Origin: Diplonema japonicum
Lineage: Eukaryota; Protista; Euglenozoa: Diplonemea
NCBI GenBank assembly: GCA_964019335.1
Contig: OZ025715.1
Span: forward strand, 124,001-188,000
DNA: 64,000 bases
Reading direction: 5' to 3'
Below the pieces are notes generated by a model. It saw only the letters and a program-made list of their open reading frames with translations. It did no database searches and was not told the DNA's origin. Made by a program: the position numbers and the translations under genes. This document shows positions 41,089 to 64,000 of this stretch, piece after piece. Positions within the stretch are counted from its first letter, which is position 1, and each line of letters opens with the position of its first letter.

Positions 41089-44000
41089 ATGGAAGCACTC
41101 ATGGGATCGGGGATGGGGATGGGGATGGACGCAGGAAAAGATGGGATGTACGTGTCTGAGACCTCATCTGCTGTGTTGGACGTTGAAAAATCGCTGGTGG
41201 TATGTTGCAAGGCAGGGTCTGATGACATGATAGCTGGTGGTGTTGCCGGAAAGTCTCTCCTCCACCACCTGATCAAACAGCCTACAGTCCTCGTTGGCCA
41301 CCTCATCTCCTTTGTTTTCAACATCAAAACCCGGCAGCAAGCCCTCGGCGGTGTTGTGCCTTTCCTGACTTCTGCAATCAGCGAGGAGAAGGACGAAACC
41401 ATTGCAAACGCGTACTTGGGGACTGTTCTCTGCGCGGTACTTGGCAATGACAAAGATAAATCGTTTGCAGGGCTTCTTATCCTTAAGAATATGTGCTCCC
41501 GAACTATGTCAGCCACTGTCTACAATGTACTGGTCATGTCGGTAAGGAAAGTGTCTGAGTTGGCAGAGAAAGGTGTCGTTTTAAGAAAAGGAAAGACAAG
41601 ACCCACAAAACTGGGGCTTGCGGCATGTTGTTGTGTGTTCGACATTGTCGCAAAGTGGCAAGACGCCGAGGAGTGTTCCGCACTCTGGAACACCATCACT
41701 GCAGTGCAAGGCCTTGTAAAGCAGTTTGGGGTGTGGCACGAGGGATACCGCCCGCTTGTTGTTACCGCCTGTACAATGCTTACTTCTCGGCTTGATGAGC
41801 TCTCTTCCCTTCGACACCACCACATTGCTTCAAACCACAACCAATCTCGGCTAAACCTTCCTGTGCAACCACTTACCCCCATCAACCAAGCCTTCTTGGC
41901 CACCCTTCAGCACCTTTCCTCTTTCTCAACCACGTTTTCTCCCTCTGCTCTCTTCCAGCTGGTAAACGAGAACGATCTTCCATCATTTGACCTTGTCCTC
42001 AAGCTAACTCTTATTTTCGGATCAGGTGATGCACTTTTTTTTTTTTTTTAAATTCCTTCTTTCTAGGTTCTGACTCAGACCAGTCAAGCTTTGTAGGACA
42101 CCATCTGAATGCCGGGATAATACAGGTAATGCTTAAGAAAACTGCCAAAACTTTATCCAAAAAAAGTTCCGGCACGGGGAATTGAACCCCGGTCTCCTGG
42201 GTGAGGGCCAGGTGTTCTAACCACTATACTATGCCGGATCGCGGATTTATTTTTTTTTTTTTTTTTTTTTTTCAAATTACCAATGCAGGGCCGCCATGGA
42301 GAGCAACACCTGAGAAAAGGGAAAAAAAGGTGAAGGGAAACCATGGGGAAATAGGGAGGGCAAAGGACCAGGCTTCTGCAAGCAGGAGGAGCCCTGGTCC
42401 CCCCCCCCCAGCCTTTGCTTCGCACGTCAGTGGTTCATTTATTATTATTATTAAAATATTAAATACTCTTTTTCCCTTTTCTCAGGTGTTGCTCTCCATG
42501 GCGGCCCTGCATTGGTATTTTGAAAAAAAAAATTAAATACTCGCCTCCCTAGCTCAGTCGGTAGAGCGCAAGGCCCTTAACCTTGTGGTCGCGGGTTCGA
42601 GCCCCGCGGGAGGTGTTTTTTACCTGACACCATATTTGCATTTTCCAGTTCTGAAGTTCACTTAACACTCCAAGGTGCAAATATTTGTCTGCTTTATATT
42701 CCCCTTCCCCAAGGTGCCCTCTTGTCATCATTCATGTAGCGAAAGGCTGCTTGATACCTTTGATTACTTTTGCGATTTGGACTTATTTTTTCTACTTTTC
42801 TCGAGCTCGGATTTTCAAGGCTCTCTTTTGGCATTTTCTTTCCCTTCCCCCCTTTCTTTTTGCACCCTTCTTTTTAAACCTTCTCTGGCGCACCGATCTG
42901 GCAGTCGGAACATATATTATTATTATTATTAACCCATAACACTCCAAGGCGCAAATATTTGTCGTTTTGAAAAATCGTTTTTTTCTCTAAGTACTTTTTC
43001 GTCCCCACGACCCCTGGATCTCCAAGAACGACTATAGTGAGGAGTTATTTTCAACTGCAATTCATGTTGCACTGCATCACTTTACCTTGTTATCCACCCA
43101 CCAAGTGGGTCCCAAATCCGAGTGGATAGGCGAAAAAACGCAAAATAACGGGTGTGCAGACTGTGTCCAAAAAACGCAAAGGTAAAGCCAAAACAGCTAC
43201 GGACGAGGGTAAGGGAGTTGGTACCCATAGAGACCATAAAATAGGCCAGTGGGGGAAAAAAGCTGTCCCGTGGTACGCAGAAACCTGACGACGCGGGATG
43301 ATTATTCCTTCGGTTTTTTGATAAGAAGTTCACAGACGTCATCCAAGAAGAGACAAACAAGCATAAGGACGCTGTGATTGATAAGATTTCGACCCAGGAC
43401 TCCACCGCTCGCTTTCTCGGATTGAGCATTATAATGGGTTTGCGGCGTGCCCTTTGTCCCAAGATGCTCAATTTACACCCCCCCGTGCACAACTCATTTT
43501 GACATGGTCGTTTTTGAGCACCCTACGGCCATTCAACTCTTCATCCCCTTTGTATTTTTATTAATTTTTGAGCTTTTTTTTAAATTTTCCTGGTCCAAAA
43601 AACCCGTTTTACCTGCAAACGGGGGTTAAATGCTGCCATTTTCCCCGTCAAATTATGAAAAGGAGCAAAAAAGGGACCCCTATGTAGATGGGCCCTGGAG
43701 TGTTATGGGTTAAAAACTAATGCAAAGCTCACTGCTGGTCGACTTGGAGAAGGCATGGTCCGCGTGGGTGTATAGCGCAGAGGAAAGGCACATGACGCAC
43801 TGCGAACTAATGCACAAGAAGAGAAGAGAAGAAAAGAAAGAGAAGAGAAGAAAAGAAAAGAAACATGTCGACCTCCAACAAGAAGAAAAAGAGGCCCGCT
43901 CACCACAAGTCCAGGACGGAAGAAATCCTGGAGAAAGCCCGCGGTGAGCGGGTAAAGGACAACGCCGCCGCCAGGGCGAAGCGCACGCGCGAGGAGGTGG

Positions 44001-47000
44001 AAAGGAAGCGCGCAGAGGGGGTCACGCCGGTGGTGACACCCTCCCCCGGGCAAGGGAAGAAGGCGGCCAGAAGGGCCAGACAGAAGGCAGCAGCTGCTGA
44101 CGCTGCCACCGCCGCCGCTTCGGGCTCCGACGACTCTGTCGTCTTAATTAGCGAGTCGCCGGGCGTTGTCACCTCGTTCACGGTCGACACGCCAGAGGTC
44201 AGGAGGGCGAGGATGAGGACTGCTGCCGCCGACACCACTGCTCCTGCACCTGCTGCTGCCAACACCACTGCTCCTGCACCTGCTGCTGCCGACACTGCTC
44301 CTGCGCCTGCTCCAGCCTCTGCACCTGCTGCTGCCGACACCACTGCTGCCGTGTGGTCTACTGCCGTCCTCACTGCCGCTGCCTGCGACACCGCCCTCCC
44401 CATGTCGGACTCTGACACCGACGAGAAGAACACGGCCCCCGCTCCCGCACCGGCCCCGGAGCCTCACTGGGATCTGGTCCCCGACACGTGGGACGCCCCC
44501 ATCTACACCAACACTGCTCCCCCTGAGGAGGTGCCCCGCGCCGTCGTCGCTCTCGACGACCTCCAGCAGGTGGACGCGATTCGCACTGCGAGGCCCACGG
44601 CCTCCCTGACCTTCGTCCTCTTGACGGAGGTTGCCGGTTCGACCACCCCATGCACCGTCATCGTACTCGCCGGCCAGCGTGTCGTGCACAAGGCCGTGCA
44701 CACCTTCTCGGTCGGGTCGAACCCCCCCTCCTACACCCCACTCGCTTCTTTTGATGGCGGCTCTGAGGTAGTGTACGTCAGCGTGAAAGCTGACAGCGTG
44801 AACGCGGCGAAGGCCAGGGTTCGGGACCTCGCCGCGACCCAGGGCGTGGCGGTGGAGGAGCAGGCGATCTTCCGCCCGAAGAAGATCGACGGGAACGAGC
44901 CGCGGGCACTGGAGCCACGAGGTGGGCCTGCGGCTCCCGGCGGCATCCGTCCATGCGGTACTCCGGGCCTCGGGCGACGGCTGCATGGTCAGGACGACCG
45001 AGCGGCGCGGGGGGTACACCTACGTGCCCATCGTAGCGGAGGGGAGGGCGGAGGCCTTCCAGCTGGCGAAGGCACTGGGCGGGTTGTCCCTGGGGGTGGC
45101 CCATCGCAAGGGTTGGACCGTGAGGTGCCTGCCGGAGACGGAGCAGCGTCTGAGGGAGGCCCTCGCCAAGCAGAGGACAAAGCGTCGGTACCTGCTCACC
45201 GGAGCCCCGCTGTCTGTTACCAGGGCAGCCTTCGACGGGATGATGGACCACATCGGTTGGAAGCCGTCGTCCATCATCCGACGCTCTGACACGGCGTTCC
45301 AGGGCACGAGGCAACTCGTGTTCTTCATCATCACCGACGCCCCGCCCCCCAAGGCCAGGACATGGCTCTTCGGCTCTCGTCTCGTTCGACTGCACGACGC
45401 GGAAAACCACCCGAGCGTCACGCTCCCGCCCCGCACCAACAAGAAGGCTCTGCGACGAGAGGCGGTGGTGTCATCACGTATGTCCGTGACTGCCTTGCCT
45501 CGGAGGAAGCTCCTTTCGTACTCCCTGAAGGTGACAGTGTCACTGAGCGATTAGACGTGAGGATCTCCTGTGTGAAGCGCGTCCCGGTCACCCTCTCCAA
45601 CGTGTACCTCACGCCTGTGAGTATAAACAGAGGAACAAGGGACCCCGAGTACCTACGGCCGGGCAGCCTACCTGCGGGGAAGAACACGATCGTTGCTGGC
45701 GACTTCAACGCACACCACAGCTCTTGGGATGCCAAGGTGACAACGCCCAACGAAAGGGGGAACGTGGTCAGGGACAGGCTTGACACCCACGGCTACACGG
45801 TCTACAACAACCGTGACGAGCCGACGCGGGACTCACCGCCACGCGTTCTGGACCTGGTGGTGGGACGTTGTGCGGAACTGGAGCCGAGGACGTTGGGGAC
45901 GTGGGGCTCTGATCACAGCCCGGTTTCCTTCCGCTTGCCGCTTGAGGACGCCTACTGCTCGGAGCGCCCCTGCCCTACCTGGAACTTCAAAAAGGCCAGG
46001 TGGGACGACTTCTCCGCGGCCGCTGCCGCTCTTCTGACCAAGATCGACACGAAGGGTCACATTGACTCCTTCACGAAGGAGGTAACAGAGGCTCTTCTGC
46101 ATGCAGCTGACGACCACATTCCGCTTTGCGGAGTGCGACGAGGCCCGACCCCCTGGTGGACGGCCGAACTCGAAGACGCTTTCGAAGAACGGAACGCCCT
46201 GCGGGATCGCTTCCTCAAGTCGGCTGAGACAGAGGATGACAGCGTAGCGGCGGTGTACAAGGCGAAGGTCAAAGAGGTGAATCAACTCTTGACCGAGTCG
46301 AAGCGCGCGGCCTGGGGTGAGATGGCGGCTGACCTCAGTCGGAGCAAGGACCTCGGGTCTGCGTTTAGGGCGGTGAAGAAGCTGGACGGCAGACACCGCA
46401 GACCGCACCTTCCCATTCTCGAGGGGAGGTTCGTGACGGACAAGGCGAAAGCCGACCGCCTGGGGGCTCACTTCGGCAAGCTCTACGGCCAGGGTGGTGA
46501 TGGGGACGCGGCGGACGTAGCTCCTTCGACGAACGTGCTTGGGTGCCACGCCTTTACGGTGTATGATCTCACCCGCGGTCTGGGAAGGATGAAGACACGC
46601 AGTGCAGCGGGTGATGATGGCATCTTCGCGGAGATGCTTCTCCACCTCGACCAACCCTCGCTCGGGGTTCTACTTCTGCTCCTCAATCGCTCATGGCAGG
46701 CGGGGATTGTGCCGGGTGCCTGGAAGAAGGGGGTGATTGTTCCAGTGGCGAAGGCAGGGAAGGACGCCACGTTGCTTGCATCGTACCGTCCCATATGTCT
46801 CACTAGCTGTCTTTGTAAGCTGCTTGAGAGGATGATAGAGGAGAGGCTTACCTTTCTCCTAGACTCTAGCGCGTCGGGTGTTGAGGGTCTCCACGATAGC
46901 CAGGCTGGCTTCAGGAGGGGCCGCTCCACGGAGGAGCAGGTGGCGTCCCTGACCGGGTGTCTGTCGAGGAACAAAGACAGTCGTCGTCTGTCGGCTGCCC

Positions 47001-50000
47001 TGCTGTTTGACTTCTCATCTGCGTTTGACCTGGTTCAGCACGAAGCTCTCCTGGGCATGATGCGGAGGAAGGGGATCCCTGAGCCCTTCGTCGAATGGAC
47101 GCGCTCCTTCCTCTGCGGTCGTACGGCGGCGGTCACGGTGGGTCGTTCGCGCGGGTCGACGACGAAGGTGAGGAGAGGGGTGCCCCAAGGGTCTGTGCTG
47201 GGACCCGTCCTTTACACCATCTACGTCGACGAGCTAGCCAGGTTGCTGGTTGGGATGGCGGACCTGTCGGTTCTTTATGCCGACGATGTTGCGGTGGTGG
47301 TCTCAGCCGGGCAGGGCGACCTGGCTGGTCTTGAGCGAGGGGCCCAGGCTGTGATGGACGCGGTTGAGGGCTGGTGTGGGAGACGGGGCATGCTGCTGAG
47401 CTCCAGCAAGTCGCAGGCAGTGTGCGTTCCCTATCAAAAGCGGCTTAAAGTCTACTTCTCTTCGTCGCGTGTCCCGCTTTGCCCGGGGGCCTTCCAGGAC
47501 CCTGTCCTTAACCTTGGGGTTGGGGCCTGTGGGACCTTGTCTGGCGTCCGTGAGCTGTCTGGCTTTCGGGTCGTGGAGGCGGGTGGCAAACGGTCCTTCG
47601 ACATTCCCGCTGCCATCCGGAGGTCCGACATTGGTTACATAGCGGCTCGCCCCCTACCTCTGTGTGGGTCGGCGAAGTATCTTGGGGTCACTGTAGACTC
47701 TGGGCTCACGTTTGACGAGCATGCGGGGGATGTCCTGAAGCGCGCTGACAAGAGGCTGAGGGTTCTAAGGCTCCTGTCGGGCACGACCTGGGGGTGCAAG
47801 AAGGCCACGCTCCGATCTCTGTACCTCACGTACGTTCTCCCGCTACTCCGGTACTGCATGGGTGTTTACTTTGCCAGGCTCAGGGACAGCAGGGTGGAGG
47901 AGCTTGTTGGGCTCCACCAGAGAGCGGCGGTGCTGATCTCGGGTTGTTGGCACGGCTCGGGCACGGCGAAGGTTGTTGCTGAGGCAGGACTGCTACCCCT
48001 CCGACAGATGGCTGAGGGAGCTGCGGCGGTGTTGACGGCGAAGTCGTTCTGCTGGAGGACCTCCCCGGTTCACCGCGAGGTCCTTGAGCAGAAGCGGATG
48101 ACCGGTATGGGCAATGGGTGGCTGCGTGCGGGTATCCTTGCGCTACGGCGCTGCGGACTGCAGGGATGGACGACGCAGGAAGGCTTCAGGAAGTACGACA
48201 CCTTCGAGCTACTCACTGCCTCGCCCAAAGTAGCACCGTGGCATGCGATCCTGGTGGAGTTCAGAACTGCCCTTCCCGGCAGGGTCACGCGTTCGTCGCC
48301 GGACGTGGATAAGCGGAAGGCGGCCGTGGAGGCTCTGGCTGCCCTTCCACCGGGTATCCATGCCTATACGGATGGTTCTGTCGTACGGGACCGCCAGAGG
48401 TGGAGGGGCGGCGCCGGGGTCTACTTGCAGCTCTCCCGCCCCCACGAACCCGTGTCCGAGAGCTTCGGCGTCAGCAATTTCTGCTCTTCCTTCCGGGCGG
48501 AGGGTCTGGCTGTCAAGGTGGCTCTGGACATGGTGGCCGCGCTCCGGAGCGAGCACCCCACGTTGGCAGACAGCCGGCTGTCGATCTGTACCGACTCGCT
48601 CTCTCTCCTTGATCAGCTGAGGGCAGGTCCTTCGCGGCAGAGGGAGAAGCTCGACCACGAGACCTGGGAACTGCTGGTGGCCGCGGCACGTGCGCAAGGT
48701 GCACCAGTCATTCTCCAGTTTGTGCCGTCCCACTGCGGGGTTCCTGGCAACGAGGCGGCAGACAGGCTGGCCGGGGAAGGCACGAAGCGCGAGCTGACTC
48801 GCCCCTCTCTCGACTACAGGTCGGTCAGGGCCCTGGTCCGTCGCCAGATTCAGCAGAGGTCTGCGGTCATTGTCGGGGAGGTGGCCCCGAGGTACGCGAG
48901 GGCCACGGGGCTCCGAGCACTTCCCCCAGTCCCTCCCCAGGCTAGCGGAGACGGTCATCTCGCGGCTGAGGGTAGGGCACTCGGCTCTCTTCTTTGGCTT
49001 CCTGCAGGCGGCTGGACCGAACAGGAAGAAGGCTGAGCTCGCTGTCCAGCGTGTGGAGCACAGATGTCCAGGGAGCACGTTGTTGGGGGGTGCGCTGTGG
49101 TTGGACGGGGTTCGCTCGACGCTCCCAATGGACGCCCCTCGCTGGTGGAGTGCCTGTCAAAACGCGTGACGCAGGTATTCACCCTTATCGCCGACTCTGG
49201 CTTGCTTGACTGGGCCAGATCCGGGGTCTTCACGTCGCCGTCTGCGGCAACAGCAGGTACCGCTGCCCCTTCGTTCATCCCGCCCCCGCCGGCTGTCTCC
49301 CTTGACGCCGGCCCTGCGGCCCCCGTGTTGCGCTGAAGTGAGTAGGGTGAGATCAACTTTTCAATTCTTTTAGTGCTTACGTTCCCTTCCCTTCTCTTTT
49401 CTTATGTTATCATCATCATCCGGCGTCTGGCCTTTCTCTTACCAGTATGCCCGTCCCCACTTTTAAATTTTTAAATTTTTAAAATTAACATCCTCTTGTT
49501 GCCGTGTGCCCTGACATTGTAGTCAAAAACGGATGGCCCGACCTACTCTGAAGTTGCCCTGATGAGTCCTCTCATCTTCGCACGAACGAGTGTGGTACGG
49601 CCATCCCCTCCCCCCGCCTGCCGGAGTGCAACGGGGAGAGCAAATACTTCCCCTATCATCCCCATGCGCACACGCACACTCGCTTCCCCTTTTGATTTTG
49701 AGAGATTTTACTCTCACCCTTTCATGTTTCGCTCAATGGAGCAAATCCCTCTCGAGGGGGCGACCGGGGCCAGTTCCGGTCACCAGAGGTCCCAGTTGAG
49801 AAAAACTACGAACTGGGGTCAAGGTCCCCGTCCGAGTCACGTAGGTCTACGCGGCTTGGAATTAAAGTAATTCAGCCCTCTTCGGCTGTTCCAAACAGGT
49901 GCACGGGTTGGCGGAGTCCACAGCTCCATCTGATTGCAGAAGAACTGGTCTTCGCCCTCCCTGTAATATTTCCATGCTTCCCTTCACCTTTCCCCTTCCC

Positions 50001-50061
50001 AGGTGTTGCTCCCCAATGGTGGCACCTATTGGTATTTTGAAAAAAAAAACTAATAAAAATA

Positions 50062-50141
<80 letters not shown>

Positions 50142-53100: not shown

Positions 53101-56100
53101 AAGGAGTCGACACCGGACGGCCCGACGGACCTGATGACCACAAAGAGCCTCATCAAGAGGTCGGTGAACCGCGACTGGGCAGCCTCGTGGGAGAAGACAG
53201 GTCGGGACAAGAGGTACCGAGAGGAGATCGGCGCGAGGTACCTCCCAATGAAGGAACTGTCCTGCAGACACGATGAGGTACAGATAACGAGACTGCGAAC
53301 GGGCAGGAGCCACCTGACTTGCGGTTTCCTGTCGAAACCCGTCCAGAATGACATACGTTGCCTCTCGTGCCATTCGATCCAGGACAGACACCATCTACTG
53401 ATCGGGTGCCCAGCTGGAGACAAGGTCCGCGAAGAGATCTTCGGGGATGACATCCCCACGACTACGAAGGAGATGCTCACAATGAGGGTGAGTGAGACCG
53501 CCTCCTACCTGAAGAGGATGGACCTCATCTGAGACTCTCACGACCGCCGAGCCGCTGACCGCAATCGCAGGACGTAGGGAAAAAAAAAAAAAAAAAAAAA
53601 AAAAAGAACAGAAAAAAAGTGAACCAAAAAGTACTAGTGAACCCTCTCCCCCTCCCCCTGTGTTTCCCATTATTACCCTGTCGTGCACCCCAACTTCTGT
53701 CTTCACCTTTCCCCGCCCCTTCACACATCCCCCCGTATCATTTCCCTTTGTTTTGAATTTTCTAAGGCTCCGCCGCCCAACAAAGCTGGCTGAAGGGGAT
53801 GCCTCCGTGCCAGTGTGCCGCTCGTGAGGGCGAGCACGGACGAGGTACCCCACTCCTCAAAAACCCGGAGGTTCGCCCGAAGGGTGCTGGCTTGGGAAGC
53901 GGGCTGGAGAGCTGCCGGGGTCACGGAGGTGGGCGAAGTCGCGAACACTGGAGCCCACGTACCGGCCCCACCTCCGTCCTCGGTACGTAAGGATAGTTTA
54001 GCGGAAGTTTCAAGGTTATCTCATTCCTTTCCCCCTTTCGTTAGATACAGGGAGACCCTTGGTCCACCTGTTCTGTCCCCCCCCCCCCCCCCCCCCCCCA
54101 GCCTTTGCTTCGCACGTCAGTGGTACATTTATTATTATTATTATTATTAAAAAAAATCCAAGGTCCCCGTCCGAGTCACGTAGGTCTACGCGGCTTGGAA
54201 TTAAAGTAATTCAGCCCTCTTCGGCTGTTCCAAACAGGTGCACGGGTTGGCGGAGTCCACAGCTCCATCTGATTGCAGAAGAACTGGTCTTCGCCCTCCC
54301 TGTAATATTTCCATGCTTCCCTTCACCTTTCCCCTTCCCAGGTGTTGCTCCCCATGGTGGCACCTATTGGTATTTTGAAAAAAAAAAAAAAAAAAAATCG
54401 GGGCCGGTCGAAGGCAAGAGTCGCCACGAAATCCTTAAGACGATCCTTCCTATTGAGGGGGATGCGCTACCAGGGGAAAGGAAAAAAGGTGGCCATGGGC
54501 AGGACAGTCGAAGGAATGTACTAGGGGGCCAAGAGGCAGACTGACTGCGCCATAGGCGATACAAAAGGAGAAGATTTTGACCAAGAAAGAATGGAACAAT
54601 GGAATATCTGAAAGGAAGTATACACACACTCCCCTTACTGAATACCGTCTTGCTTCACCCTGTGATTTGCCAGGCACAATTATGTCACCCTGTGCAACAC
54701 AGACTTTTGATGTTTCAACCTCTTTATCTTCTCTCCACCTTTTGTCTCCCCCACTGGCAGTGGAACAAAAAAAAATCCGAAGGCGGCTTAGCTCAGTGGT
54801 AGAGCATTGGTCCTGTAAACCAAGGGTCGAGAGTTCGATCCTCTCAGTCGCCTCATTTTTTTCGTGATGACAGAAGGTCCCTGCTCAGGCCACTTTGTTG
54901 ATTTCCCCAGGAAAGCATCCAACGGCGTCCCCAGATCCGGTCCTCGTTCTGGCGTGTAGGAGGCTTCCCCAGGGGATGCCATCCAACACGGCGCTCCGGC
55001 TCCGGCCCTCGGCCGCCCAATGCAACACCGTTCCCCTGCTCCTCCCCCCGAGCTGCCTCAGCCTGCGCGTTGCCCGGGGATCACCACCGTTGAGGTGGGC
55101 AGCCACTACACACATCGCGTTCGTCTTCATTTTTCTTGGCGTGTGCAAACGACCCCTAAAATCGCGGATTTACCACCGGTGATAATTACAATGGCATCAC
55201 AAATTTATAATCGGGGTGTATCACATAGAGTTCACAGTTCATATTCTCGCGGGTTTGCGGAGGTGTTGTCAGCCAGGTCTGATGCACCATTTTGAAGATA
55301 AAAGTTGATTCTCCCCCTCGAAACCAGTTTTTGGTGGCACGAAAGCTCATATGAGCAGTACTGATTCAGACGAGTTCGGGAGTGCCAAAGGGGACATTTT
55401 CACTGACGATGGGACCTCACCTTGCTAATACCATTGTAAAAGCGTGAAATAGCAATCAAACACAGCACTGTGGACCCCGATGTGAGGTATCTCAGCACTT
55501 GGCATATTGCCTTCCCATTTGGTGAAGGATCGAGGTCATTGTAGGGGTGCTTGGGAGGCTGGTATTTGGGAGCCCTGACTCGCGTACAGGATTGGTGTAC
55601 CACGTGATCACTGCAGAAGCACCAATGCTTATGATGCCAAAAAAGGACAACATGGCGACCAGAATGTCTCGGCGGCGCTGCTTCGAGCTTCTTGTCCTGC
55701 AGCTCGAGCGCGACAATGAAAGCTCTTACAACGTTCTCCCATATCTCCTGCGGTGCCTTCAATGGCGTCTTATGAAATGAACGTCGTGCTCAGTTTGAAA
55801 GCGCACCCCACGTGACTTGTCGATGCCACTATTCGTGTCACCTGGTGGATGGCTCGGCATCGGTAGCGTTCCCCTTGTACCCCGGCATCGATAACTTCTA
55901 TACTGGCGTTACCCTTGTACAACAGATGTGGGAATCAAGTTTGTGGTGGAAACAATCCGAAGAAAATCGCCAGAATGTACCTAATCTTACAGCGAAGAAG
56001 CAAGTAGGCCTAGGCAGGCCCAAAAACGGGTTCGCGATGAGCGACAACAGCTTTTGGACTGTCATGCGCCAGTCCGGAAACAACCGCCCAGCAAGCACCC

Positions 56101-59100
56101 GTTCTGAAATGGGGACCAGGGAAGATGCCAGGCGCGACTTCACCAAGGGTAACTGGTCCAAAAAACTGGATGCAGCAAGACAATGCACACACCACATGCG
56201 TGTTTTGGGGGTCCGGGTGCAAACTATCTTCATCCGCAAGGCTTGTACCTTGCATCTGTGCCCAGCTTGCTTTGCGGACTATCACGAACCAGTGGTTTAC
56301 CCACCCCAATCTACCCCCTCTGGAGGCCCGGCCACAACGCCTAAGGTACCAGCGTCTCCAAACACACACCCTTCTCCCCAGGTCGTCTGAGCCAAGTCCC
56401 AAAATCGTTTTATGGTTGCATGCTCGAGGATGTTTTAATTTTAGAAAATAAAAAAGTCGATGGTGACCTTTTTTTTGCCCAAAAACCCCCGTCCTTTAAT
56501 GGTTAATGCAAAATGTCCAGAGTGCGCAACAGTGTTCTCCACGTGAGGGGTTCGATCTCAAAGTGGGTCCGCCAGTCACCAAAGTTGTAGGCTGGGTTCC
56601 CACGGAGAGAGAATCGGAGCGGAGGCGTCAGGTGCGGTGGACCACTCTAAGGGATGTAAGTCCATTGTGTGACACAGTCTCTCGGTGAAGGTCTGACTTC
56701 TGGTGGGTAGGAAGGCAGAACCACATAGGGGGTAAGGAAGACCATTGTGTGACTAGTCGCACACGGTGAAAGCCCAAGGCCGGTGGGTATCTGCCAACGT
56801 GGCCCCTCCTCTACTTCATTCCAGCCCTTAAAAGTAGGAATACGTATGAGAGTTGTGGTCGCCTCATTTTGGGGGGTTTTTTTTTGAAATCGACCCATAT
56901 TTACAGGCAGGGGAGTTAAATAATGTAGAAAAGACTCCTGTGATTATATATTTGTGATGCCGTTGTAATTATTACAGTGTTAAATCCGCGAGCTCGCCTG
57001 GTCACGCTCCGGACTGTTCACCTCGCCATCATCCCTGGCGTCTACAGACGTCACTGCACCTTCAAACGTGCCGCCCCCTCCTCCGGTCTCTCTTGACGCC
57101 GGTCCCGCGGCCCCCGTGCTGCGCTAAGGGATCGCCCCGCGTGTGTGTGTAAAATGGAATGTTGTGTTTCCCACTTTCCTTTCCCTTCCTTCCCCTTCCT
57201 CTCACTGTTTCCCATTTCCCCTTTTTTTTCACACTCACCAATGATTCGCTCAATAGGAGCAATACCTCCCTGGGGGGCTTTCCGCCGGAGGTTCCAGCCA
57301 AAGAAGGACATCCAGCTGGAAGGTAGGCCCCCGTTTTTCTCTCACTTGACTGAGGGAATAATGTAATTCAGCCCTCTTCGGCTGTCCCAAAGCAGAGCAC
57401 GGGTTGGTGGGGGACCAGGGCTCCTCCTGCTTGCAGAAGCCTGGTCCTTTGCCCTCCCTATTTCCCCATGGTTTCCCTTCACCTTTTTTTTCCCCTTTTC
57501 TCAGGTGTTGCTCTCCATGGCGGCCCTGCATTGGTATTTTGAAAAAAAAAAAAAAAAAAAAAAAAGGAACAGAAAAAAGTGAACCAAAAAGTACTAGTGA
57601 ACCCTCTCCCCCTCCCCCTGTGTTTCCCATTATTACCCTGTCGTGCACCCCAACTTCTGTCTTCACCTTTCCCCGCCCCTTCACACATCCCCCCGTATCA
57701 TTTCCCTTTGTTTTGAATTTTCTAAGGCTCCGCCGCCCAACAAAGCTGGCTGAAGGGGATGCCTCCGTGCCAGTGTGCCGCTCGTGAGGGCGAGCACGGA
57801 CGAGGTACCCCACTCCTCAAAAACCCGGAGGTTCGCCCGAAGGGTGCTGGCTTGGGAAGCGGGCTGGAGAGCTGCCGGGGTCACGGAGGTGGGCGAAGTC
57901 GCGAACACTGGAGCCCACGAACCGGCCCCACCTCCGTCCTCGGTACGTATGGATAGTTTAGCGGAAGTTTCAAGGTTATCACATTCCTTTCCCCCTTTCG
58001 TTAGATACAGGGAGACCCTTGGTCCACCTGTTCTGTCCCCCCCCCCAGCCTTTGCTTCGCACGTCAGTGGTTCATTTATTATTATTATTAAAATAAATCC
58101 GCGACAGGTCGGTCAGGGCCCTGGTCCGTCGCCAGATTCAGCAGAGGTCTGCGGTCATTGTCGGGGAGGTGGCCCCGAGGTACGCGAGGGCCACGGGGCT
58201 CCGAGCGGCGTGCTTCCCCCAGTCCCTCCCCAGGCTAGCGGAGACGGTCATCTCGCGGCTGAGGGTAGGGCACTCCGCTCTCTTCTTCGGCTTCCTGCAG
58301 GCGGCTGGACCGAACAGGAAGAAGGCTGAGCTCAGCTGTCCAGCGTGTGGAGCTCGGATGTCCAGGGAGCACGTTGTTGGGGGGTGCGCTGTGGTTGGAC
58401 GGGGTTCGCTCGACGCTCCCAATGGACGCCCCTCGCTGGTGGAGTGCCTGTCAAAACGCGTGACGCAGGTATTCACCCTCATCGCCGACTCTGGCTTGCT
58501 TGACTGGGCCAGATACGGGGTCTTCACGTCGCCGTCTGCGGCAACGGCAGGTACCGCTGCCCCTTCGTTCATCCCGCCGGCTGTCTCCCTTGACGCCGGC
58601 CCTGCGGCCCCCGTGTTGCGCTGAAGTGAGTAGGGTGAGATCAACTTTTCAATTCTTTTAGTGCTTACGTTCCCTTCCCCTCTCTTCCACTCCCTCTCAT
58701 CCTTTTCTTTATCATCATCCGGCGTCTGGCCTTTCTCTTACCAGTATGCCCGTCCCCTTTTAAACTTTTAAATTTTTAAAATTAACATCCTCTTGTTATC
58801 GTGTGCCCTGACATTGTAGTCAAAAACGGATGGCCCGGCCTACTCTGAAGTTGCCCAGATGAGTCCTCTCATCTTCGCACGAACGAGTGTGGTACGGCCA
58901 TCCCCTCCCCCCGCCAGCCGGAGTGCAGCGGGGAGAGCAAATGCTTCCCCTATCATCCCCATGCGCACACGCACACTCGCTTCCCCTTTTGATTTTGAGA
59001 GATTTTACTCTCACCCTTTCATGTTTCGCTCAATGGAGCAAATCCCTCTCGAGGGGGCGACCGGGGCCAGTTCCGGTCACCAGAGGTCCCAGTTGAGAAA

Positions 59101-62100
59101 AACGACGAACTGGGGTCAAGGTCCCCGTCCGAGTCACGTAGGTCTACGCGGCTTGGAATTAAAGTAATTCAGCCCTCTTCGGCTGTTCCAAACAGGTGCA
59201 CGGGTTGGCGGAGTCCACAGCTCCATCTGATTGCAGAAGAACTGGTCTTCGCCCTCCCTGTAATATTTCCATGCTTCCCTTCACCTTTCCCCTTCCCAGG
59301 TGTTGCTCCCCATGGTGGCACCTATTGGTATTTTGAAAAAAAAAAAAATCCGCGATCCGGCATAGTATAGTGGTTAGAACACCTGGCCCTCACCCAGGAG
59401 ACCGGGGTTCAATTCCCCGTGCCGGAATTTTTTCAAAGGGAAAATATCGTTCACGGAACAACACCTGGGGTGGCGTCGAATTTGCCAGTCTTACCAGGGG
59501 TAGGGGTGTCCCATTTAGACACTCGTTGGGGGGTGTCGGTGACTGCCCCGGCGTCCCACTCTTGCTTCACCTCGGTCTTGGCCTCTTCAGTTGGCTCTGC
59601 TGTCTCCTCGGCAGGGGTATCCCATCTGCCTTTCTTTGCTGGTTTATCTGCTTCCTCATTTTTAACCTCCGCGTAAGTCCGGCCAGTGGTGTCATCGTCT
59701 GCAAAGTTGTCCCGTCTGGCAGGGGAGAGGGCCCGGTCGTACCGCCGCTTCATGTACTCGGTCTCCCTGTCGCCGATAGTTTTCCGCTTGCGCTCCAGCA
59801 TGGGGTCGGCTTCCTCTTGCGCTTCTAACGCTTCCTGTACAAAACCTCTTCTCGTCACTTCGTCTTCCTCTTCGTCCTCGTCCATGATTGTTTGATTAAA
59901 CTGCTCCTTGCTTCCTGTTCCATACAAATCCGTGTCGTAGGTGTCCCCCGCCTTCGTAGAGAGGAACGCCTTGTTCTTGTCATCCTTCGCCATTGTTTTT
60001 TTTTCTTTTTTTTTCTCCTTCCCCCTTTCCTTTGCCATAGGTGTTAGAAAAGGACATCGAACCCCCCCTATGTAGATGGGCCCTGGAGTGTTATGGGTTA
60101 AAAACTAATGCAAAGCTCACTGCTGGTCGACTTGGAGAAGGCATGGTCCGCGTGGGTGTATAGCGCAGAGGAAAGGCACATGACGCACTGCGAACTAATG
60201 CACAAGCAGTCGTATCCAAGCGGTTAAGGAGGTGGACTAGAAATCCATTGGGCTCTGCCCGCGTAGGTTCAAATCCTGCCGACTGCGGTTTTTTTTACAA
60301 CCAACCAACCAACCACAACACAAACAGGGGATGTCAGGTGTTTTAATCAAACTGTTGACTACAGGAGGCGACGAAATAGTCCCTGGTGACAACAAGTCGG
60401 TGCAAAATGTATGTCCAAGTGTATTAGCTCACAACAACAGGCAAGTTGCGCAATACTGCGATTAATATTAACAAAGGAGGGAGGTGACGTGGGGTGCAGC
60501 ACAGGACAAGTTGTCGAACTGCTAGAAAAAAACTGTCGTGGGGCATCTGTTCTTGCCGTGGCAATGGCTGCCAGAAGCGGGAGAACAATAATACCGGAGT
60601 TATTGCGGGTAGGGAACGAAAGCTCGCTTGCTGCGTTGAGAGAGGTTTTGAAAGTGAACCCAGAGCTGAAGGATGACGAGAACATGTCAAAGAAGATAGT
60701 CGAAACAGTAATTTCCAATGAAAAAACATTGGAAGGTGCTGACGGTCTCCTTTGTGAGCTACCACAAGCACTGTCGGTCCCCAGTCTGCTGCGTATTATT
60801 CATCGATCTGGGAACAAAAAACTGAGAACAGCAGCAGACTCGTCTCTTACGTCTATTGCAGCAAGGTGTGGGGATTCGTCGGAATTCTTGCACACAGTGA
60901 CAAACATTGTTCTCACACACCAACGGGCAATCGGTGAAGCATTCAGTTCCAAGGGTGGCGAGAGGGACCCTCTCGCCAACCCACCACCACAGAACCCTGC
61001 TGACATCTCAACAGATACAACCTCCCCTCGCGACACCCCCATTGCTAAACAAGCCCTTACATATATCAAAGCGTGGTGTGACCACGTCAAAAACTGGGAA
61101 AACCTAATTGACGATGTGTGGGCGATATTTTTCTCGAACGCTTCTGAAGAGTTCATGGTCTCAGCCGTGTGCACTATTGTTGGCCCGGTTGCTGCAGAGA
61201 AGTGCAACATGACCTGCTTCCTCAAGACTGTAAAGCACCGCCTTATCACACCGCAGATTTCATCGGGTGAAGAACCGCAGATATTCGACAAACTAGCACC
61301 ATTCTTAATTTTGCGACCCCTGAGGCATGTAGCGGAGGATGCCGAGCTTGTCCAAATCGTCGTACGCTTTGCAAAAGACGAAGACCAACTTGCCGAGATA
61401 AGACGCATCAGCTGGGAATTCCTAAGCAGGGTAAGACCAATAGACGCTAACATTAATAATCTGTTAGATGGAGGCATGGAAAACGTGAATGAATTCAAGC
61501 TTAGGGTGTTCTTCGTGTGCAGTGCAGCGTCCCGTTTAGTGGGAGAGGAGATGCGCGAAAAGGACAAAAGCGATGTGGAATGCTTGCTAGCAACTGTAGA
61601 ACGCATGTCCAATCATCTACAGAGCTGTTCTTTCGCCACTGATGAGAAAGCAAAACTCGCTATCTTGGACGCATTCTCATTGACCTTGGCTGCAGCAGTA
61701 AGGTACGGTGTCAAGGCCTCACTTAATGTGTATAGCCCGAAAGTACTTGTGTCAGCTATTGCGTATTTGAGAAAGGCTGGCGTCGGAGTACCAAAGTGGT
61801 TTGTCAGCTCGCTTGTCGAGCACTGCACCACGAAACTGAGAACAGATGAGAAAGTCTTCTCGCCAGTCTGGCTCGAACTCCTCTTTAACATGGTGTACTC
61901 AGTGTCTGAAACTGAACTTGCACCGCACGTTGTTTCTCTATCAGAACTCTCCCTCAAAGGTATCGAACAACCTGTCAACGATACATCCCTAGCCGCTTCT
62001 CTCAAGCTCCTTGCGTCCCTTTTCGCCAAGGCTAGCGACAGTCTCAAAAACCTACCCTCTTGGTTTCTCCCTACCACTGCTCAAGCACTCACACGGATTG

Positions 62101-62171
62101 CCTCGAACCCCTCTCCGGATCCGCAGATCTCACAATTGGCATCCCAACTTCTCTCTATGCTTGTCAGTTAG
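41089..62171 (+). CDS. predicted ~935-aa HEAT/ARM-like protein, exons 41089-42025, 42067-42125, 60328-60408, 60441-62171 (18.2-kb second intron)
   Basis: All three GT-AG junctions are phase-compatible and give one stop-free frame; both halves are helical, Leu/Ala-rich repeat-like sequence. Confidence 0.6.
42167..42238 (-). tRNA. tRNA-Glu(CTC), C33
   Basis: Full cloverleaf TCCGGCA...CCTGG-CCCTCAC-CCAGG...TGCCGGA-A; T-run terminator; identical to 59356-59427. Confidence 0.92.
42250..42398 (-). mobile_element. 3' end + poly(A) of LINE family C upstream of minus-strand tRNA-Glu
   Basis: Reverse complement of the C 3' end seen at 51630-51770; poly(A) followed by taaatccgcga and then the tRNA. 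Confidence 0.85.
42397..42531 (+). mobile_element. 3' fragment of module B (to ~42456), then a 63-bp family-C 3' end (42469-42531) with 11-bp TSD attaaatactc
   Basis: TSD at 42458-42468 and 42532-42542, directly abutting tRNA-Lys. Confidence 0.85.
42543..42615 (+). tRNA. tRNA-Lys(CTT), C33
   Basis: GCCTCCC...CAAGG-CCCTTAA-CCTTG...GGTTCGAGCC...GGGAGGT-G; T6 terminator. Confidence 0.92.
42933..43709. mobile_element. non-autonomous piggyBac-like element (777 bp)
   Basis: TTAA|cccataacactcca ... tggagtgttatggg|TTAA with a 14-bp perfect TIR; internal RVCRLCP remnant resembles the piggyBac Cys-rich C-terminus. Confidence 0.8.
43819..50047 (+). mobile_element. near-full-length Ingi-like LINE (family A): ORF1 43865-~45440 (frameshifted), APE-RT-RNaseH-CCHC ORF 45362-~49336 (frameshifted near 3' end), ~700-nt 3' UTR, poly(A)
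   Basis: GGGV, GDFNAH, LDL, SDH (APE); YRPICLTS, QAGFR, GVPQGSVLGP, YADD, KYLGV (RT); YTDGS, FRAE, TDS, VPSHCGVPGNEAAD (RNase H); 5' flank TSD aactaatgcacaag 43805-43818. Confidence 0.92.
50140..50674 (+). mobile_element. module B copy 1 (~530 bp, structured, (ATT)n tail)
   Basis: Near-identical to 53606-54152 and 57566-58093; followed by TSD 50675-50688. Confidence 0.85.
50688..50769 (+). tRNA. tRNA-Ser(AGA)
   Basis: GCAGTCG...GTGGA-CTAGAAA-TCCAT, long variable arm, GTTCAAATC, CGACTGC-G; T5 terminator. Confidence 0.95.
50865..51410. repeat. palindrome/inverted-repeat cluster (MITE-like)
   Basis: 23-bp IR 50865-50887/51276-51298; three 21-bp tandem units 50908-50970; perfect 24-bp palindrome 50971-50994. 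Confidence 0.7.
51440..51772 (+). mobile_element. 5'-truncated LINE family C (3' UTR + poly(A))
   Basis: Near-identical to 57225-57565; last ~170 nt homologous to the family A 3' end. Confidence 0.85.
51779..54152 (+). mobile_element. 5'-truncated Ingi-like LINE family D (RT C-half + RNase H + CCHC, frameshift near 52845), followed by an A-tract and module B copy 2 (53606-54152)
   Basis: VVYADD, AKYLGV, YTDGS, YRCE, SDS, VPGHCGLPGNEQAD, ITRLRTG, CLSC...HHLLIGC; flanked by aaaaatc on both sides. Confidence 0.88.
54159..54392 (+). mobile_element. 5'-truncated family A 3' end + poly(A)
   Basis: Matches 49820-50040; aaaaatc on both sides. Confidence 0.88.
54400..54770 (+). mobile_element. putative 5'-truncated retroelement (family E) directly upstream of tRNA-Thr
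   Basis: Bounded by aaaaatc on both sides; ends ctggcagtggaac-A(n); no other copy in the window. Confidence 0.5.
54782..54853 (+). tRNA. tRNA-Thr(TGT), C33
   Basis: GGCGGCT...TTGGT-CCTGTAA-ACCAA...GTTCGATC...AGTCGCC-T; T7 terminator. Confidence 0.92.
55812..56390 (+). pseudogene. degenerate piggyBac transposase fragment
   Basis: IDNFYTGVTL (second catalytic-Asp motif) and RQC...T...ACTLHLCPACFADYH (C-terminal Cys-rich domain). Confidence 0.7.
56992..57565 (+). mobile_element. 5'-truncated LINE family C (ORF end + 3' UTR + poly(A))
   Basis: Starts right after taaatccgcga (56981-56991); ...SLDAGPAAPVLR* ORF end shared with family A. Confidence 0.85.
57566..58093 (+). mobile_element. module B copy 3
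   Basis: Near-identical to the other B copies; followed by taaatccgcga 58094-58104. Confidence 0.85.
58105..59345 (+). mobile_element. 5'-truncated family A LINE with intact C-terminal CCHC frame
   Basis: Matches ~48877-50040; TSD aaatccgcga at 58095-58104 and 59346-59355. Confidence 0.9.
59356..59427 (+). tRNA. tRNA-Glu(CTC), C33
   Basis: Complete cloverleaf; T6 terminator. Confidence 0.92.
59451..59993 (-). pseudogene. SF3B1: SF3B1 (SAP155) N-terminal fragment, 180 aa, no HEAT domain
   Basis: YDTDLYG, DPMLE...IGDRETEYMKRR...LSPARRDNFAD...RTYAEV, repeated RWDTP/KWDTP ULM-like motifs. Confidence 0.75.
60065..60290 (+). repeat. duplicate of the tRNA-Ser locus without the LINE insertion (= 43677-43818 joined to 50689-50772)
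   Basis: Identical 142-bp upstream flank with a single copy of aactaatgcacaag. Confidence 0.95.
60206..60287 (+). tRNA. tRNA-Ser(AGA)
   Basis: Identical to 50688-50769; T8 terminator. Confidence 0.95.
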
Positions 62172-62224: not shown

Positions 62225-64000
62225 ATGTTGAAAAATGATGTACTCACGTTCCTTCCGACGAAGATCGACGAGCCCACGGTGATGGTTATGTGTGGGAGCA
62301 GCGATGAGGTGTACAAGCTTGCCGAGGAGCGTGGGAAGGTGAATGATATCATTCACTTCGATAGCATTGTGGGGATGGAGGCACAAGAAAAAGTCCTGGA
62401 GAGTGCTGTGTGCAAAGGTAAATGGGTTCTTCATCAAGAGACAGAGGACGATGTGTTACGGTGGTTGGCAAGGACTGTGCTTCCACGGTCGGCACATTTG
62501 TGCCACGAGGAGTTCCGGCTGTTCCTGATCGGAGACGACGCAAAATTTGCGCGCTTGCCAGCGATTCTACGCTCAGCGACGATTATAGTGCAGCCACCGC
62601 TTGGGAACGAACTCTGTGCACGTCATCTTTCTCAAGCCATCGAACACGGGAACGTCTATCGGATAGAACAGCATAAGGCAGGGGTTGCTTACTTAACAAT
62701 GAATGATCAAGTTTCAATCATGCGAAAGTGCGTCAGCGAAGCAGACTTCCTCGTGCTCCTCGATCACGCCGATATCAACAGCGAAGATAGGGATGGGTTT
62801 AGGTTCCTCGATGTTGCACTTGAAAAGCGGTACTTAGAAGCTGTGAAGAAAATATGCAGCAAAGGAGGAAAATCTGACTTAATTGACCTCCCGCTTCTTG
62901 CCTGCCCCGAGACACAGCACCTCTTGGATGCCGTCGTCAACGCAGAGAACGTACCATTCAACGAGCTGGCCGCAACGCACATTGCAGCAGAGTCCGGGAA
63001 CGAAAAAGTCCTCCGCGTTCTGTTCGATGCCTGTGCCGACAGAGCCTTCAACTACGACGACTATCCGCTCGGTAAAGTCGTGACACGCGACAGCAAGCAC
63101 CTCACGCAGATGGTTATCGATAGAATGGAGAGGGTAGGATTACACCCCTTCAGGACAGCACATATTTCCCTATTCTTCCTCTTGGACGTACTCACAAACG
63201 TCTCTCTGCTGACCGATTTCGGTGCAGAGATCTGTGAGAGATTCTGCAAATGTGTGCTTGAAGACGGGGCACTGCCATATGTTATCCCGTGTGAATGCAT
63301 TGAGAAGGCTAGTCGTGGGCACCCAAACCTGATGGGGGATCTTCTTGTCATTGCAGACGTGAAGAAAAACGCGGCAACAATGGTGGACTGGTACATTAAT
63401 AGACTCCCGACCCACCCACAGGCAGCGATGTGTGTGACTGAGTATGTCTCAAACACGTCGCCAGAGAGCTTGGAACGTCCAAATCTTTTGAAGAAGCTCG
63501 TGCTGAGGGGGTGCGAGGCGAGGAATTTGTTGGAAATTGTGCTGAAGTATGTCAAGACAACAGCGAGAATGGACATTGATGGGATCGAGATGTCGCCGTT
63601 GATGCTAACAACCGTGCTGCCAGGGTTTCCCACAGCGGCTGAGCTGATATTGGACAAGGACAAAGACCCCGATGCAAGGAACGAAACCGGGCTGAACGTT
63701 CTGCAGCAAACCGTCGTTGACATGACAATGTCTCCGTTGCCATATCTACCGCACTTGGAGAACTATGCTAGGATGTTCAGGTTGTTTATCGAGGCAGGTG
63801 TGGACACAGTGGTGGATGACGGGCATGGGTTCTCATCGTCTTTGTTCGGCTACTGTCAACGGTACGAGCTCGCTCCCGTCTGCTTTGAACTTTTACAAGT
63901 CAAGCAGTCCCCGAACATCATCCTGCTTTGCACACAAAACCTCCGTGCTTGCATGGTCAACTACGCCCGCACACGTACATCCTCACTTGAAACTTCTTGG
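62225..64000 (+). CDS. ankyrin-repeat protein with N-terminal dynein-heavy-chain D6/AAA6-like segment (3'-partial, absent from ORF track)
   Basis: Manual translation: MLKNDVLTF...AVCKGKWVLH...HEEFRLFL...ILRSATIIVQPP, then DINSEDRDG and ATHIAAESGNEKVLRVLF; no stop seen in the part translated by hand. Confidence 0.7.
   Translation, partial: MLKNDVLTFLPTKIDEPTVMVMCGSSDEVYKLAEERGKVNDIIHFDSIVGMEAQEKVLESAVCKGKWVLHQETEDDVLRWLARTVLPRSAHLCHEEFRLFLIGDDAKFARLPAILRSATIIVQPPLGNELCARHLSQAIEHGNVYRIEQHKAGVAYLTMNDQVSIMRKCVSEADFLVLLDHADINSEDRDGFRFLDVALEKRYLEAVKKICSKGGKSDLIDLPLLACPETQHLLDAVVNAENVPFNELAATHIAAESGNEKVLRVLFDACADRAFNYDDYPLGKVVTRDSKHLTQMVIDRMERVGLHPFRTAHISLFFLLDVLTNVSLLTDFGAEICERFCKCVLEDGALPYVIPCECIEKASRGHPNLMGDLLVIADVKKNAATMVDWYINRLPTHPQAAMCVTEYVSNTSPESLERPNLLKKLVLRGCEARNLLEIVLKYVKTTARMDIDGIEMSPLMLTTVLPGFPTAAELILDKDKDPDARNETGLNVLQQTVVDMTMSPLPYLPHLENYARMFRLFIEAGVDTVVDDGHGFSSSLFGYCQRYELAPVCFELLQVKQSPNIILLCTQNLRACMVNYARTRTSSLETSW

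What the first reader, a model, noticed from the sequence alone, without database searches (positions are those of the whole stretch)
41089..62171. The whole 18.2-kb tRNA/retrotransposon island appears to be one intron of a host gene
Seen: ORF 41089 continues through a 41-nt intron into a 59-nt exon that ends CAG|GTAATG at 42125 in phase 0. On the far side, ACAAACAG|GGG ATG TCA (60328) opens an 81-nt phase-0 exon, and a 32-nt GTATGT...CAG intron joins it in frame to ORF 60411. The result is a stop-free ~935-aa HEAT/ARM-like protein. Other introns here are 32-72 nt, so this one would be several hundred times larger. It contains six tRNA genes, LINE poly(A) tails and many polypyrimidine-AG sites. 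Inference: an intronic tRNA cluster became a transposon sink, and host read-through may supply transcripts for the sense-oriented LINEs.
Basis: partly seen in the sequence, partly recalled or inferred. Interest (0 to 1): 0.75.

Follow-up and report, generated by a model that had tools for sequence, protein, structure and literature searches.

The report
Giant tRNA-filled intron in diplonemid gene
In a marine flagellate whose introns are mostly about 40 bases long, one conserved gene is split by an 18,200-base stretch holding six tRNA genes and piles of jumping genes stacked in front of them, and this stretch is likely spliced out as one giant intron, so the gene-copying enzyme would read through tRNA genes that act as stop zones in related parasites.

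Summary
The gene model holds. Four exons (41089-42025, 42067-42125, 60328-60408, 60441-62171) join into a stop-free 935-aa frame. Both halves match, in order, the same five diplonemid proteins of 972-1071 aa, three of them transcript-derived. Against a profile of those five, the proposed splice sites rank first of 69 left and 328 right alternatives, and none of 1,857 candidate internal exons helps. The protein is a HEAT-type solenoid of no assigned family. No RNA run was available, so splicing itself is untested (about 80% likely). The island is mostly not a passive sink: 10 of 11 retroelement tails end at a tRNA start or a copy of its upstream flank, with a filled/empty pair showing a 14-nt duplication. 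Tail orientation follows the tRNA, not the host gene. The scan reported such tRNA-aimed stacks earlier on other DNA of this genome. Transposon-swollen introns up to 72 kb are published for D. papillatum, and intronic tRNAs for nematodes. New here: a tRNA cluster inside a euglenozoan intron, and an inverted tRNA-Glu pair that could loop out all but 929 nt.

The parts
41089..42025 (+). Host gene exon 1 (ATG at 41089; likely spliced-leader acceptor AG just upstream)
   Evidence: matches residues ~4-340 of five diplonemid proteins
42026..42066 (+). 41-nt GT-AG intron, phase 1
   Evidence: best-ranked model
42067..42125 (+). Host exon 2, 59 nt, ends in phase 0
42126..60327 (+). Predicted 18,202-nt intron; only about 40 nt of ordinary intron sequence remain at each end, outside the two outermost tRNA genes
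   Evidence: splicing not observed
42167..42238 (-). tRNA-Glu(CTC), antisense to host, identical to the copy at 59356
42250..42406 (-). 5'-truncated retroelement tail (T family) ending 10 nt before the antisense tRNA-Glu
42397..42532 (+). Two truncated tails (E2, T) stacked before tRNA-Lys, separated by an 11-nt copy of the tRNA flank
42543..42615 (+). tRNA-Lys(CTT)
42929..43713 (.). MITE-like element: 14-nt terminal inverted repeats with TTAA on both sides (piggyBac-type ends, label recalled)
43819..50049 (+). Full-length non-LTR retrotransposon A: ORF1 from 43866, one UGA at 45287, ORF2 45290-49036 in the same frame (APE, RT, RNase H); 3' UTR with T tail and poly(A)
50140..50676 (+). E2 unit (about 540 nt, (TTA)n tail), followed by the 14-nt duplication and tRNA-Ser
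50688..50769 (+). tRNA-Ser(AGA), filled site
51441..54776 (+). Stack before tRNA-Thr: T tail, truncated retrotransposon B (51779-53580; RT end and RNase H, 28% identical to A), E2, T tail, unassigned A-tailed piece
54782..54853 (+). tRNA-Thr(TGT)
55162..56991 (.). Segment between 51-nt inverted repeats (88%), holding a frame with a Cys-rich end; no Pfam match
57222..59348 (+). Stack before tRNA-Glu: T tail, E2, 1.25-kb 3' copy of retrotransposon A with a 10-nt duplication
59356..59427 (+). tRNA-Glu(CTC); with its tail forms a 98-nt, 98% inverted repeat of 42161-42258
59465..60061 (-). Truncated 5' copy of an SF3B1-like gene, antisense to the host
   Evidence: (E 0.007 human SF3B1, 0.011 yeast Hsh155)
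60065..60293 (+). Empty-site twin of the tRNA-Ser locus, including tRNA-Ser(AGA) 60206-60287
60328..60408 (+). Host exon 3, 81 nt, phase 0; in-frame ATG at 60331
60409..60440 (+). 32-nt GT-AG intron
60441..62171 (+). Host exon 4 to stop codon
   Evidence: matches the C-terminal ~580-630 residues of the five relatives

Best explanation
A conserved diplonemid gene for a predicted HEAT-repeat protein is split by an 18.2-kb block of six tRNA genes and stacked retroelements, which is likely transcribed through by RNA polymerase II and likely cis-spliced out as one intron, and which likely grew because retrotransposons homing to tRNA starts inserted there again and again. Shown: exon coordinates, reading frame, collinear match to single proteins in five relatives, tRNA genes, tails, duplications, inverted repeats. 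Inferred: (1) tRNA genes came to lie in an ordinary short intron (about 40 nt of it survive at each end); (2) non-LTR elements inserted by target-primed reverse transcription 10-13 nt upstream of tRNA starts, 3' end toward the tRNA, each new copy pushing older ones away; (3) a MITE, a gene fragment and a duplicated tRNA-Ser unit were added by DNA-level events; (4) the spliceosome joins 42125 to 60328. How it avoids 26 decoy acceptors is open; my preferred aid is RNA pairing, since the antisense tRNA-Glu plus tail at the 5' edge can pair with sense copies downstream and the first tail-borne decoy is predicted to be locked in a local hairpin.
For: Both halves hit the same 5 of 5 full-length relatives in order (N-half E 1e-39 to 6e-6, C-half 8e-63 to 3e-12 in a six-protein database); three are Trinity transcript products, one is D. 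papillatum DIPPA_04495. The alignment with the Lacrimia protein runs without a gap across the junction, and the Met at 60331 aligns with an internal Met there. The proposed model ranks 1 of 69 (left) and 1 of 328 (right); 0 of 1,857 internal exon candidates improve it. 2,805 nt of exons are intact while two copies of retrotransposon A differ by 21 substitutions and 10 indels in about 1.2 kb. A second strain differs synonymously at 11 of 20 listed sites in exon 4, against 24-30% expected (p 0.003-0.018). DNA contigs of 3 of 4 laid runs (two studies) run from inside the last tRNA-Ser through exon 3 and beyond. The acceptor is A/C-rich like those described for diplonemids (PMC12621601, part 2 read). 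A 72-kb validated intron and transposon-filled introns exist in D. papillatum (PMC10161547, passages).
Against: No RNA evidence for the junction. Exon 3 opens with an in-frame ATG, so a spliced leader at 60328 would give a 602-aa protein, and unspliced exon 2 would end in a stop after 351 aa: fission needs no new signals. In trypanosomatids tRNA clusters are proposed Pol II stop-and-restart points, also inside gene clusters (PMC2695483 section 8). 26 decoy acceptor-like sites lie in the intron, six of them strong pyrimidine-tract sites in tails. No YTRAY branch motif in the last 40 nt (sequence; such motifs are found in only 2-16% of diplonemid introns). The next-best right-hand model is only 1.1 bits lower, though it differs in the small intron and keeps 60328. 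Eight of the 20 strain differences lie on contigs under depth 5, 7 further differences in those contigs were not listed, and it is unknown whether that strain has the island. Copy divergence may predate insertion, which weakens the decay argument. The left boundary and the full length of the island were not checked against reads.
Confidence: 0.8

Rival explanations
1. Gene fission: polymerase II stops or the RNA is cut at the tRNA cluster, the first half is made as a 351-aa protein, and a spliced leader added at 60328 makes a 602-aa second half from the ATG at 60331; the two HEAT halves might still assemble.
For: Both products are open frames; tRNA clusters as proposed boundaries in trypanosomatids (PMC2695483 section 8); selection on exon 4 fits this too.
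Against: The donor sits exactly where homology breaks and in phase with the acceptor; the Met is ancestral and internal in Lacrimia; all five full-length relatives are single chains; the only pyrimidine run before 60328 is the tRNA terminator.
Confidence: 0.08
2. The gene is recently dead: the island grew too large or too decoy-rich to splice, and the exons have not yet decayed.
For: Several island duplicates are 98-100% identical, so growth is recent; at 0.5% neutral decay an intact frame still has about a 9% chance.
Against: At 1-2% decay the chance falls to 0.8% or less (assumed indel rates); orthogroup OG0016204 has one member in each of four diplonemids; no second close copy shows in reads over exon 4.
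Confidence: 0.05
3. The halves are transcribed separately and joined by trans-splicing between two pre-mRNAs held together by the inverted tRNA-Glu and tail sequences.
For: A 98-nt, 98% inverted repeat lies 35 nt from the donor and 894 nt from the acceptor; predicted pairing gain -219 kcal/mol for the extended arms.
Against: Needs a restart upstream of 59336, for which there is no evidence; plain read-through is simpler; the repeat is an automatic by-product of two identical tRNA genes.
Confidence: 0.04
4. Assembly artefact: the island does not lie between these exons, or has another length.
For: A third of the island is repeated within the window (6,118 of 18,202 nt); no laid contig spans it.
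Against: tRNA-Ser is joined to exon 3 in contigs of three runs (one may be the source sample); a false join would hardly put two halves of one gene in the right order and strand. A collapsed, longer true intron remains possible.
Confidence: 0.03

Closest known systems
Long transposon-containing GT-AG introns of Diplonema (Paradiplonema) papillatum, up to 72 kb in DIPPA_22195 (PMC10161547; passages and section 8 read; the main supplement PDF could not be read)
   Same: Canonical GT-AG intron of a diplonemid gene swollen by whole and partial transposons.
   Different: That genome is 280 Mb with median introns under 1 kb; here neighbouring introns are about 30-60 nt. The passages I saw do not mention tRNA genes in introns or tRNA-aimed insertion.
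Dp_NLTR-A of Dictyostelium purpureum and Pp_NLTR-B (PMC5006619; passages read)
   Same: Non-LTR elements with RNase H after RT that insert just upstream of tRNA genes and can pile up at one gene.
   Different: NLTR-A lies 2-6 bp upstream, NLTR-B about 39-64 bp; here the tails end 10-13 nt upstream, in a euglenozoan, and the targets are inside a protein gene. Kinship of the RTs was not tested.
Intronic tRNA genes of Caenorhabditis (PMC4999229; passages read)
   Same: Pol III tRNA genes nested in introns of Pol II genes, on either strand, in an organism with spliced-leader trans-splicing (the latter recalled).
   Different: Six genes in one intron, each with a retroelement stack; polycistronic euglenozoan context.
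tRNA clusters at polycistron boundaries in trypanosomatids (PMC2695483; section 8 and passages read)
   Same: Clustered tRNA genes within a long one-strand gene array of a euglenozoan.
   Different: There they are proposed to end Pol II transcription; here the polymerase would have to pass them.
Recursive splicing at AG|GT ratchet points in long animal introns (recalled; search listing only)
   Same: Six tail copies carry pyrimidine tract-CAG|GTGTTG, spaced 1.7-7.5 kb apart.
   Different: All six come from one ancestral tail motif, which may simply be the element's 3' hairpin; no RNA data.

Membership tests
U2-type spliceosomal intron | GT donor and AG acceptor in compatible phase | tested here: met
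U2-type spliceosomal intron | Removal restores a continuous frame collinear with orthologues | tested here: met
U2-type spliceosomal intron | Branch-point motif near the acceptor | tested here: inconclusive
   no YTRAY in the last 40 nt, but only 2-16% of diplonemid introns have one (PMC12621601)
U2-type spliceosomal intron | Exon-exon junction in RNA | not testable with these tools
   no RNA holder listed
HEAT/ARM solenoid proteins | Stacked helical repeats over the whole chain | tested here: met
   model of orthologue P0004, pLDDT 79.8, almost all helix; top matches are HEAT/ARM solenoids
A named HEAT family (CAND1, MMS19, importin, Integrator) | Family-level sequence or structure match | tested here: inconclusive
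   no Pfam or PDB sequence hit; TM-scores 0.13-0.27; best Z 14.4 among near-tied unrelated solenoids
tRNA-targeted non-LTR retrotransposons (NLTR-A type) | APE endonuclease, RT and RNase H in ORF2 | tested here: met
tRNA-targeted non-LTR retrotransposons (NLTR-A type) | Insertion at a fixed distance upstream of different tRNA genes, with target-site duplication | tested here: met
   four isotypes; 10 of 11 tails; 14-nt duplication at a filled/empty pair; distance 10-13 nt, not 2-6
tRNA-targeted non-LTR retrotransposons (NLTR-A type) | Genome-wide preference for tRNA genes | not testable with these tools
   no genome held
tRNA-targeted non-LTR retrotransposons (NLTR-A type) | RT/RNase H phylogeny grouping with NLTR-A/B | not tested
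   no tree of RTs was built
Recursively spliced intron | Internal acceptor directly followed by a donor | tested here: inconclusive
   8 of 27 G-poor YAG sites on + are followed by GT, against 4 of 22 on -; six of the eight are copies of one motif
Recursively spliced intron | Saw-tooth nascent RNA and reads from exon 2 to the ratchet point | not testable with these tools
   no RNA run

The most novel reading that the evidence does not exclude
tRNA-homing LINEs built a giant intron that folds itself away: insertions in front of oppositely oriented tRNA genes create long RNA duplexes that hide decoy splice sites and bring donor and acceptor to within about 930 nt, and the LINE tail's CAG|GT motif serves as a ratchet point, so that a spliceosome tuned to 40-nt introns, competing with spliced-leader trans-splicing, removes 18 kb while polymerase II runs through six tRNA genes.
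Probability: 0.15. Interest if true: 0.8.

Novelty: new variant of a known kind. Interest (0 to 1): 0.5.

Why it matters
It offers one locus at which three open points in euglenozoan gene expression can be tested by ordinary RNA sequencing: whether tRNA genes stop polymerase II outside trypanosomatids, how cis-splicing wins over spliced-leader addition across many decoy acceptors, and what happens to the 'safe landing' logic of tRNA-aimed retrotransposons when the tRNA cluster itself lies inside a conserved gene. In practice it warns that short-read assemblies and gene callers will split such genes in two; PMC12621601 notes that long introns may have been missed in these species.

Tried and rejected
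No whole genome is held. Word-index protein searches found nothing for the C-half, only P0003 and P0004 for the alignment, and nothing at 1876-5000 aa, so no transcript-derived protein of this species turned up. Metagenome scan: 434 pattern matches, none confirmed, so intron position and size in relatives are untested. ESM Atlas gave only weak generic HEAT look-alikes. PDB sequence search with the five-protein profile: 0 hits. P0006 (447 aa) matches the C-half only and was left out of the profile. Extra exons inside the island: rejected. 'Sense orientation reflects host read-through': rejected as an argument. I first took the GGAGTGTTATGGG end for a retroelement tail; it is a terminal inverted repeat. 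The Cys-rich frame at 55776 as a piggyBac remnant is recalled and not confirmed by Pfam. A six-protein tree does not fix the genus. The loop-out idea has a weakness: duplexes with the tails at 51.6 and 57.4 kb are nearly as strong (-206 against -219 kcal/mol), and the pairing partner is made only after 17 kb of transcription. Literature searches and a search of one D. papillatum supplement found no report of intronic tRNA clusters or tRNA-aimed retrotransposons in diplonemids; the paper's main supplement (sections on introns and repeats) was too large to read and may bear on this.
Full report
Observation. The coordinates are right. Exons 41089-42025, 42067-42125, 60328-60408 and 60441-62171 join into 935 codons and a stop, with GT-AG introns of 41, 18,202 and 32 nt. 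ARAGORN and Rfam both give six tRNA genes, all inside the large gap: Glu (minus strand), Lys, Ser, Thr, Glu, Ser. Most long open frames of the window lie on the + strand, as in polycistronic euglenozoans. Sequence repeated within the window covers 6,118 of 18,202 nt inside the gap and 133 of 45,798 outside.

One gene. A search of 1.84 billion representatives with exon 4 alone gave six proteins. Five are 972-1071 aa long: from Lacrimia lanifica, Diplonema papillatum (DIPPA_04495), Flectonema neradi, Namystynia karyoxenos and one unnamed ENA record; three are Trinity transcript products. The sixth (447 aa) matches only the C-half and was left out of the profile. The N-half, which played no part in that search, matches the N-terminal 265-410 residues of all five, and the C-half follows on. 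A profile of the five scores the N-half at E 3e-65; 500 shuffles and all other frames of the window score E 0.46 or worse. The alignment with the Lacrimia protein crosses the junction without a gap, and the Met at 60331 faces an internal Met. The organism is thus a diplonemid; I did not fix the species. D. papillatum's supplement lists the orthogroup as a diplonemid gain with one member in each of four species. A model of the Flectonema orthologue is an all-helical solenoid (pLDDT 79.8, pTM 0.50) that matches many HEAT/ARM proteins about equally. I take it for a scaffold protein; no family can be named.

Is it alive and contiguous? Contigs of runs X2, X4 and X6 run from inside the last tRNA-Ser through exon 3 to the end of the laid stretch without gaps, keeping the 32-nt intron, so they are DNA-like and confirm the right boundary (one may be the source sample). 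Run X1, another strain, differs at 20 listed sites in exon 4, 11 of them synonymous, against 24-30% expected (p 0.003-0.018, dN/dS about 0.25-0.35). Eight of these lie on contigs under depth 5, 7 more differences in those contigs were not listed, and X1 may lack the island. The exons carry no break in 2,805 nt, whereas two copies of retrotransposon A differ by 21 substitutions and 10 indels in about 1.2 kb. The left boundary and the island's full length were not checked on reads, and the junction was not seen in RNA.

What fills the intron. Only about 40 nt of ordinary intron remain at each end; the outermost features are two tRNA genes pointing outward. Two tail families (T and E2) occur 11 times, all in the intron. 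Four end directly at a tRNA gene, six are followed by a whole or partial copy of the flank of the tRNA that ends their stack, and one runs into the next element. The clearest case is a filled and an empty site: 43677-43818 plus 50675-50775 equal 60065-60293 exactly, with a 14-nt overlap, so 6,856 nt were inserted at the start of tRNA-Ser. Duplications of 10 and 11 nt end at position -1 of tRNA-Glu and tRNA-Lys. Ten tails are sense and one is antisense, the one before the antisense tRNA-Glu, so orientation follows the tRNA. The full-length element has APE, RT and RNase H domains, ORF1 and ORF2 in one frame split by one UGA, and a stop before its last Cys motif. A second, truncated element is 28% identical in RT. 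That these were made by target-primed reverse transcription guided by the Pol III machinery is inference from established non-LTR biology and from the dictyostelid parallel (PMC5006619, passages). Earlier unreviewed notes of this scan describe the same stacks on other pieces of this genome; they are not independent evidence. Not all cargo is tRNA-aimed: a TTAA-flanked MITE-like element, an inverted-repeat-flanked segment and a truncated antisense copy of an SF3B1-like 5' end, whose probable parent shows as longer contigs with other flanks.

How it could be spliced. The intron holds 26 decoy acceptor-like sites. Three routes are open. Plain one-step cis-splicing has precedent, a validated 72-kb intron in D. 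papillatum. RNA folding may help: the antisense tRNA-Glu and tail 35 nt from the donor are 98% complementary over 98 nt to the sense copy 894 nt from the acceptor; pairing would loop out 25 of the 26 decoys and leave 929 nt, and the first tail-borne decoy at 42485 is predicted to be fully paired in a local hairpin while the donor stays open. Against this, rival duplexes at 51.6 and 57.4 kb are nearly as strong, and the repeat arises automatically from identical tRNA genes. Third, six tails carry CAG|GTGTTG, one letter from the donor of the 41-nt intron, which could act as ratchet points; they are copies of one motif that also forms a hairpin. None of this is tested.

Rivals. Fission is the serious one: a leader at 60328 gives 602 aa and the unspliced first half 351 aa, and tRNA clusters are proposed Pol II boundaries in trypanosomatids. 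It does not explain why an in-phase donor lies exactly at the break in homology. I give cis-splicing 0.80, fission 0.08, a recently dead gene 0.05, trans-splicing of two pre-mRNAs 0.04 and an assembly fault 0.03.

Known and new. Papers seen: PMC10161547 (passages, section 8, searches of 7 small supplements; main supplement not readable), PMC12621601 (part 2 of 8 and passages), PMC2695483 (passages, section 8), PMC5006619 and PMC4999229 (passages), bioRxiv 10.64898/2026.07.29.740908 and PMC13598402 (word searches; nothing on intronic tRNAs); the rest as search listings only. Transposon-swollen introns in diplonemids, intronic tRNA genes and tRNA-aimed retrotransposons are each known. In eight searches I found no report of their combination, or of a tRNA cluster within a euglenozoan intron. 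The earlier-findings look-ups showed no note on an intronic tRNA island. Verdict: real, a new variant of a known kind, interest 0.5.

Noticed in passing
window 59465-60061 (-): Truncated 5' copy of an SF3B1/Hsh155-like gene with its upstream DNA; host transcription would make about 600 nt of RNA antisense to a core splicing-factor mRNA in a lineage with RNAi genes. The protein match is weak (E 0.007) but hits both human and yeast proteins. In run X6 this piece has about 8 times single-copy depth, against 1.5 times in X2 and X4; unexplained.
   Followed up: partly
window 43866-49036: ORF1 and ORF2 of the full-length LINE share one frame, split by a single UGA at 45287, with no ATG near the start of ORF2; fits the read-through idea of note e1-10630281.
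   Followed up: partly
window 42929-43713 and 60065-60101: MITE-like element with TTAA flanks; the bin holding its right end shows 40-70 times single-copy depth in three runs, so it is a high-copy family.
   Followed up: partly
window 55162-56991: The inverted repeats end in the same 10-nt flank found upstream of both tRNA-Glu genes, hinting at an old head-to-head duplication; the frame 55776-56390 ends in a Cys/His motif that recalls piggyBac transposases (no Pfam hit).
   Followed up: partly
window 50865-51416: Tandem CCATTATTTAAC units and several palindromes; possibly another small DNA element.
   Followed up: no
window 31400-33600: GC-rich stretch of broken frames ending at a T run, with no tRNA nearby and no Pfam match; may be a decayed element outside the island.
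   Followed up: partly
loose end at window 60205, run X1: Another tRNA-Ser locus in the second strain is preceded by a (TTCA)n plus A-run tail, hinting at a further tRNA-aimed family.
   Followed up: no
window 62236-64000: The next gene (ankyrin repeats, weak dynein D6 P-loop hit) starts only about 65 nt after the host gene's stop codon.
   Followed up: no
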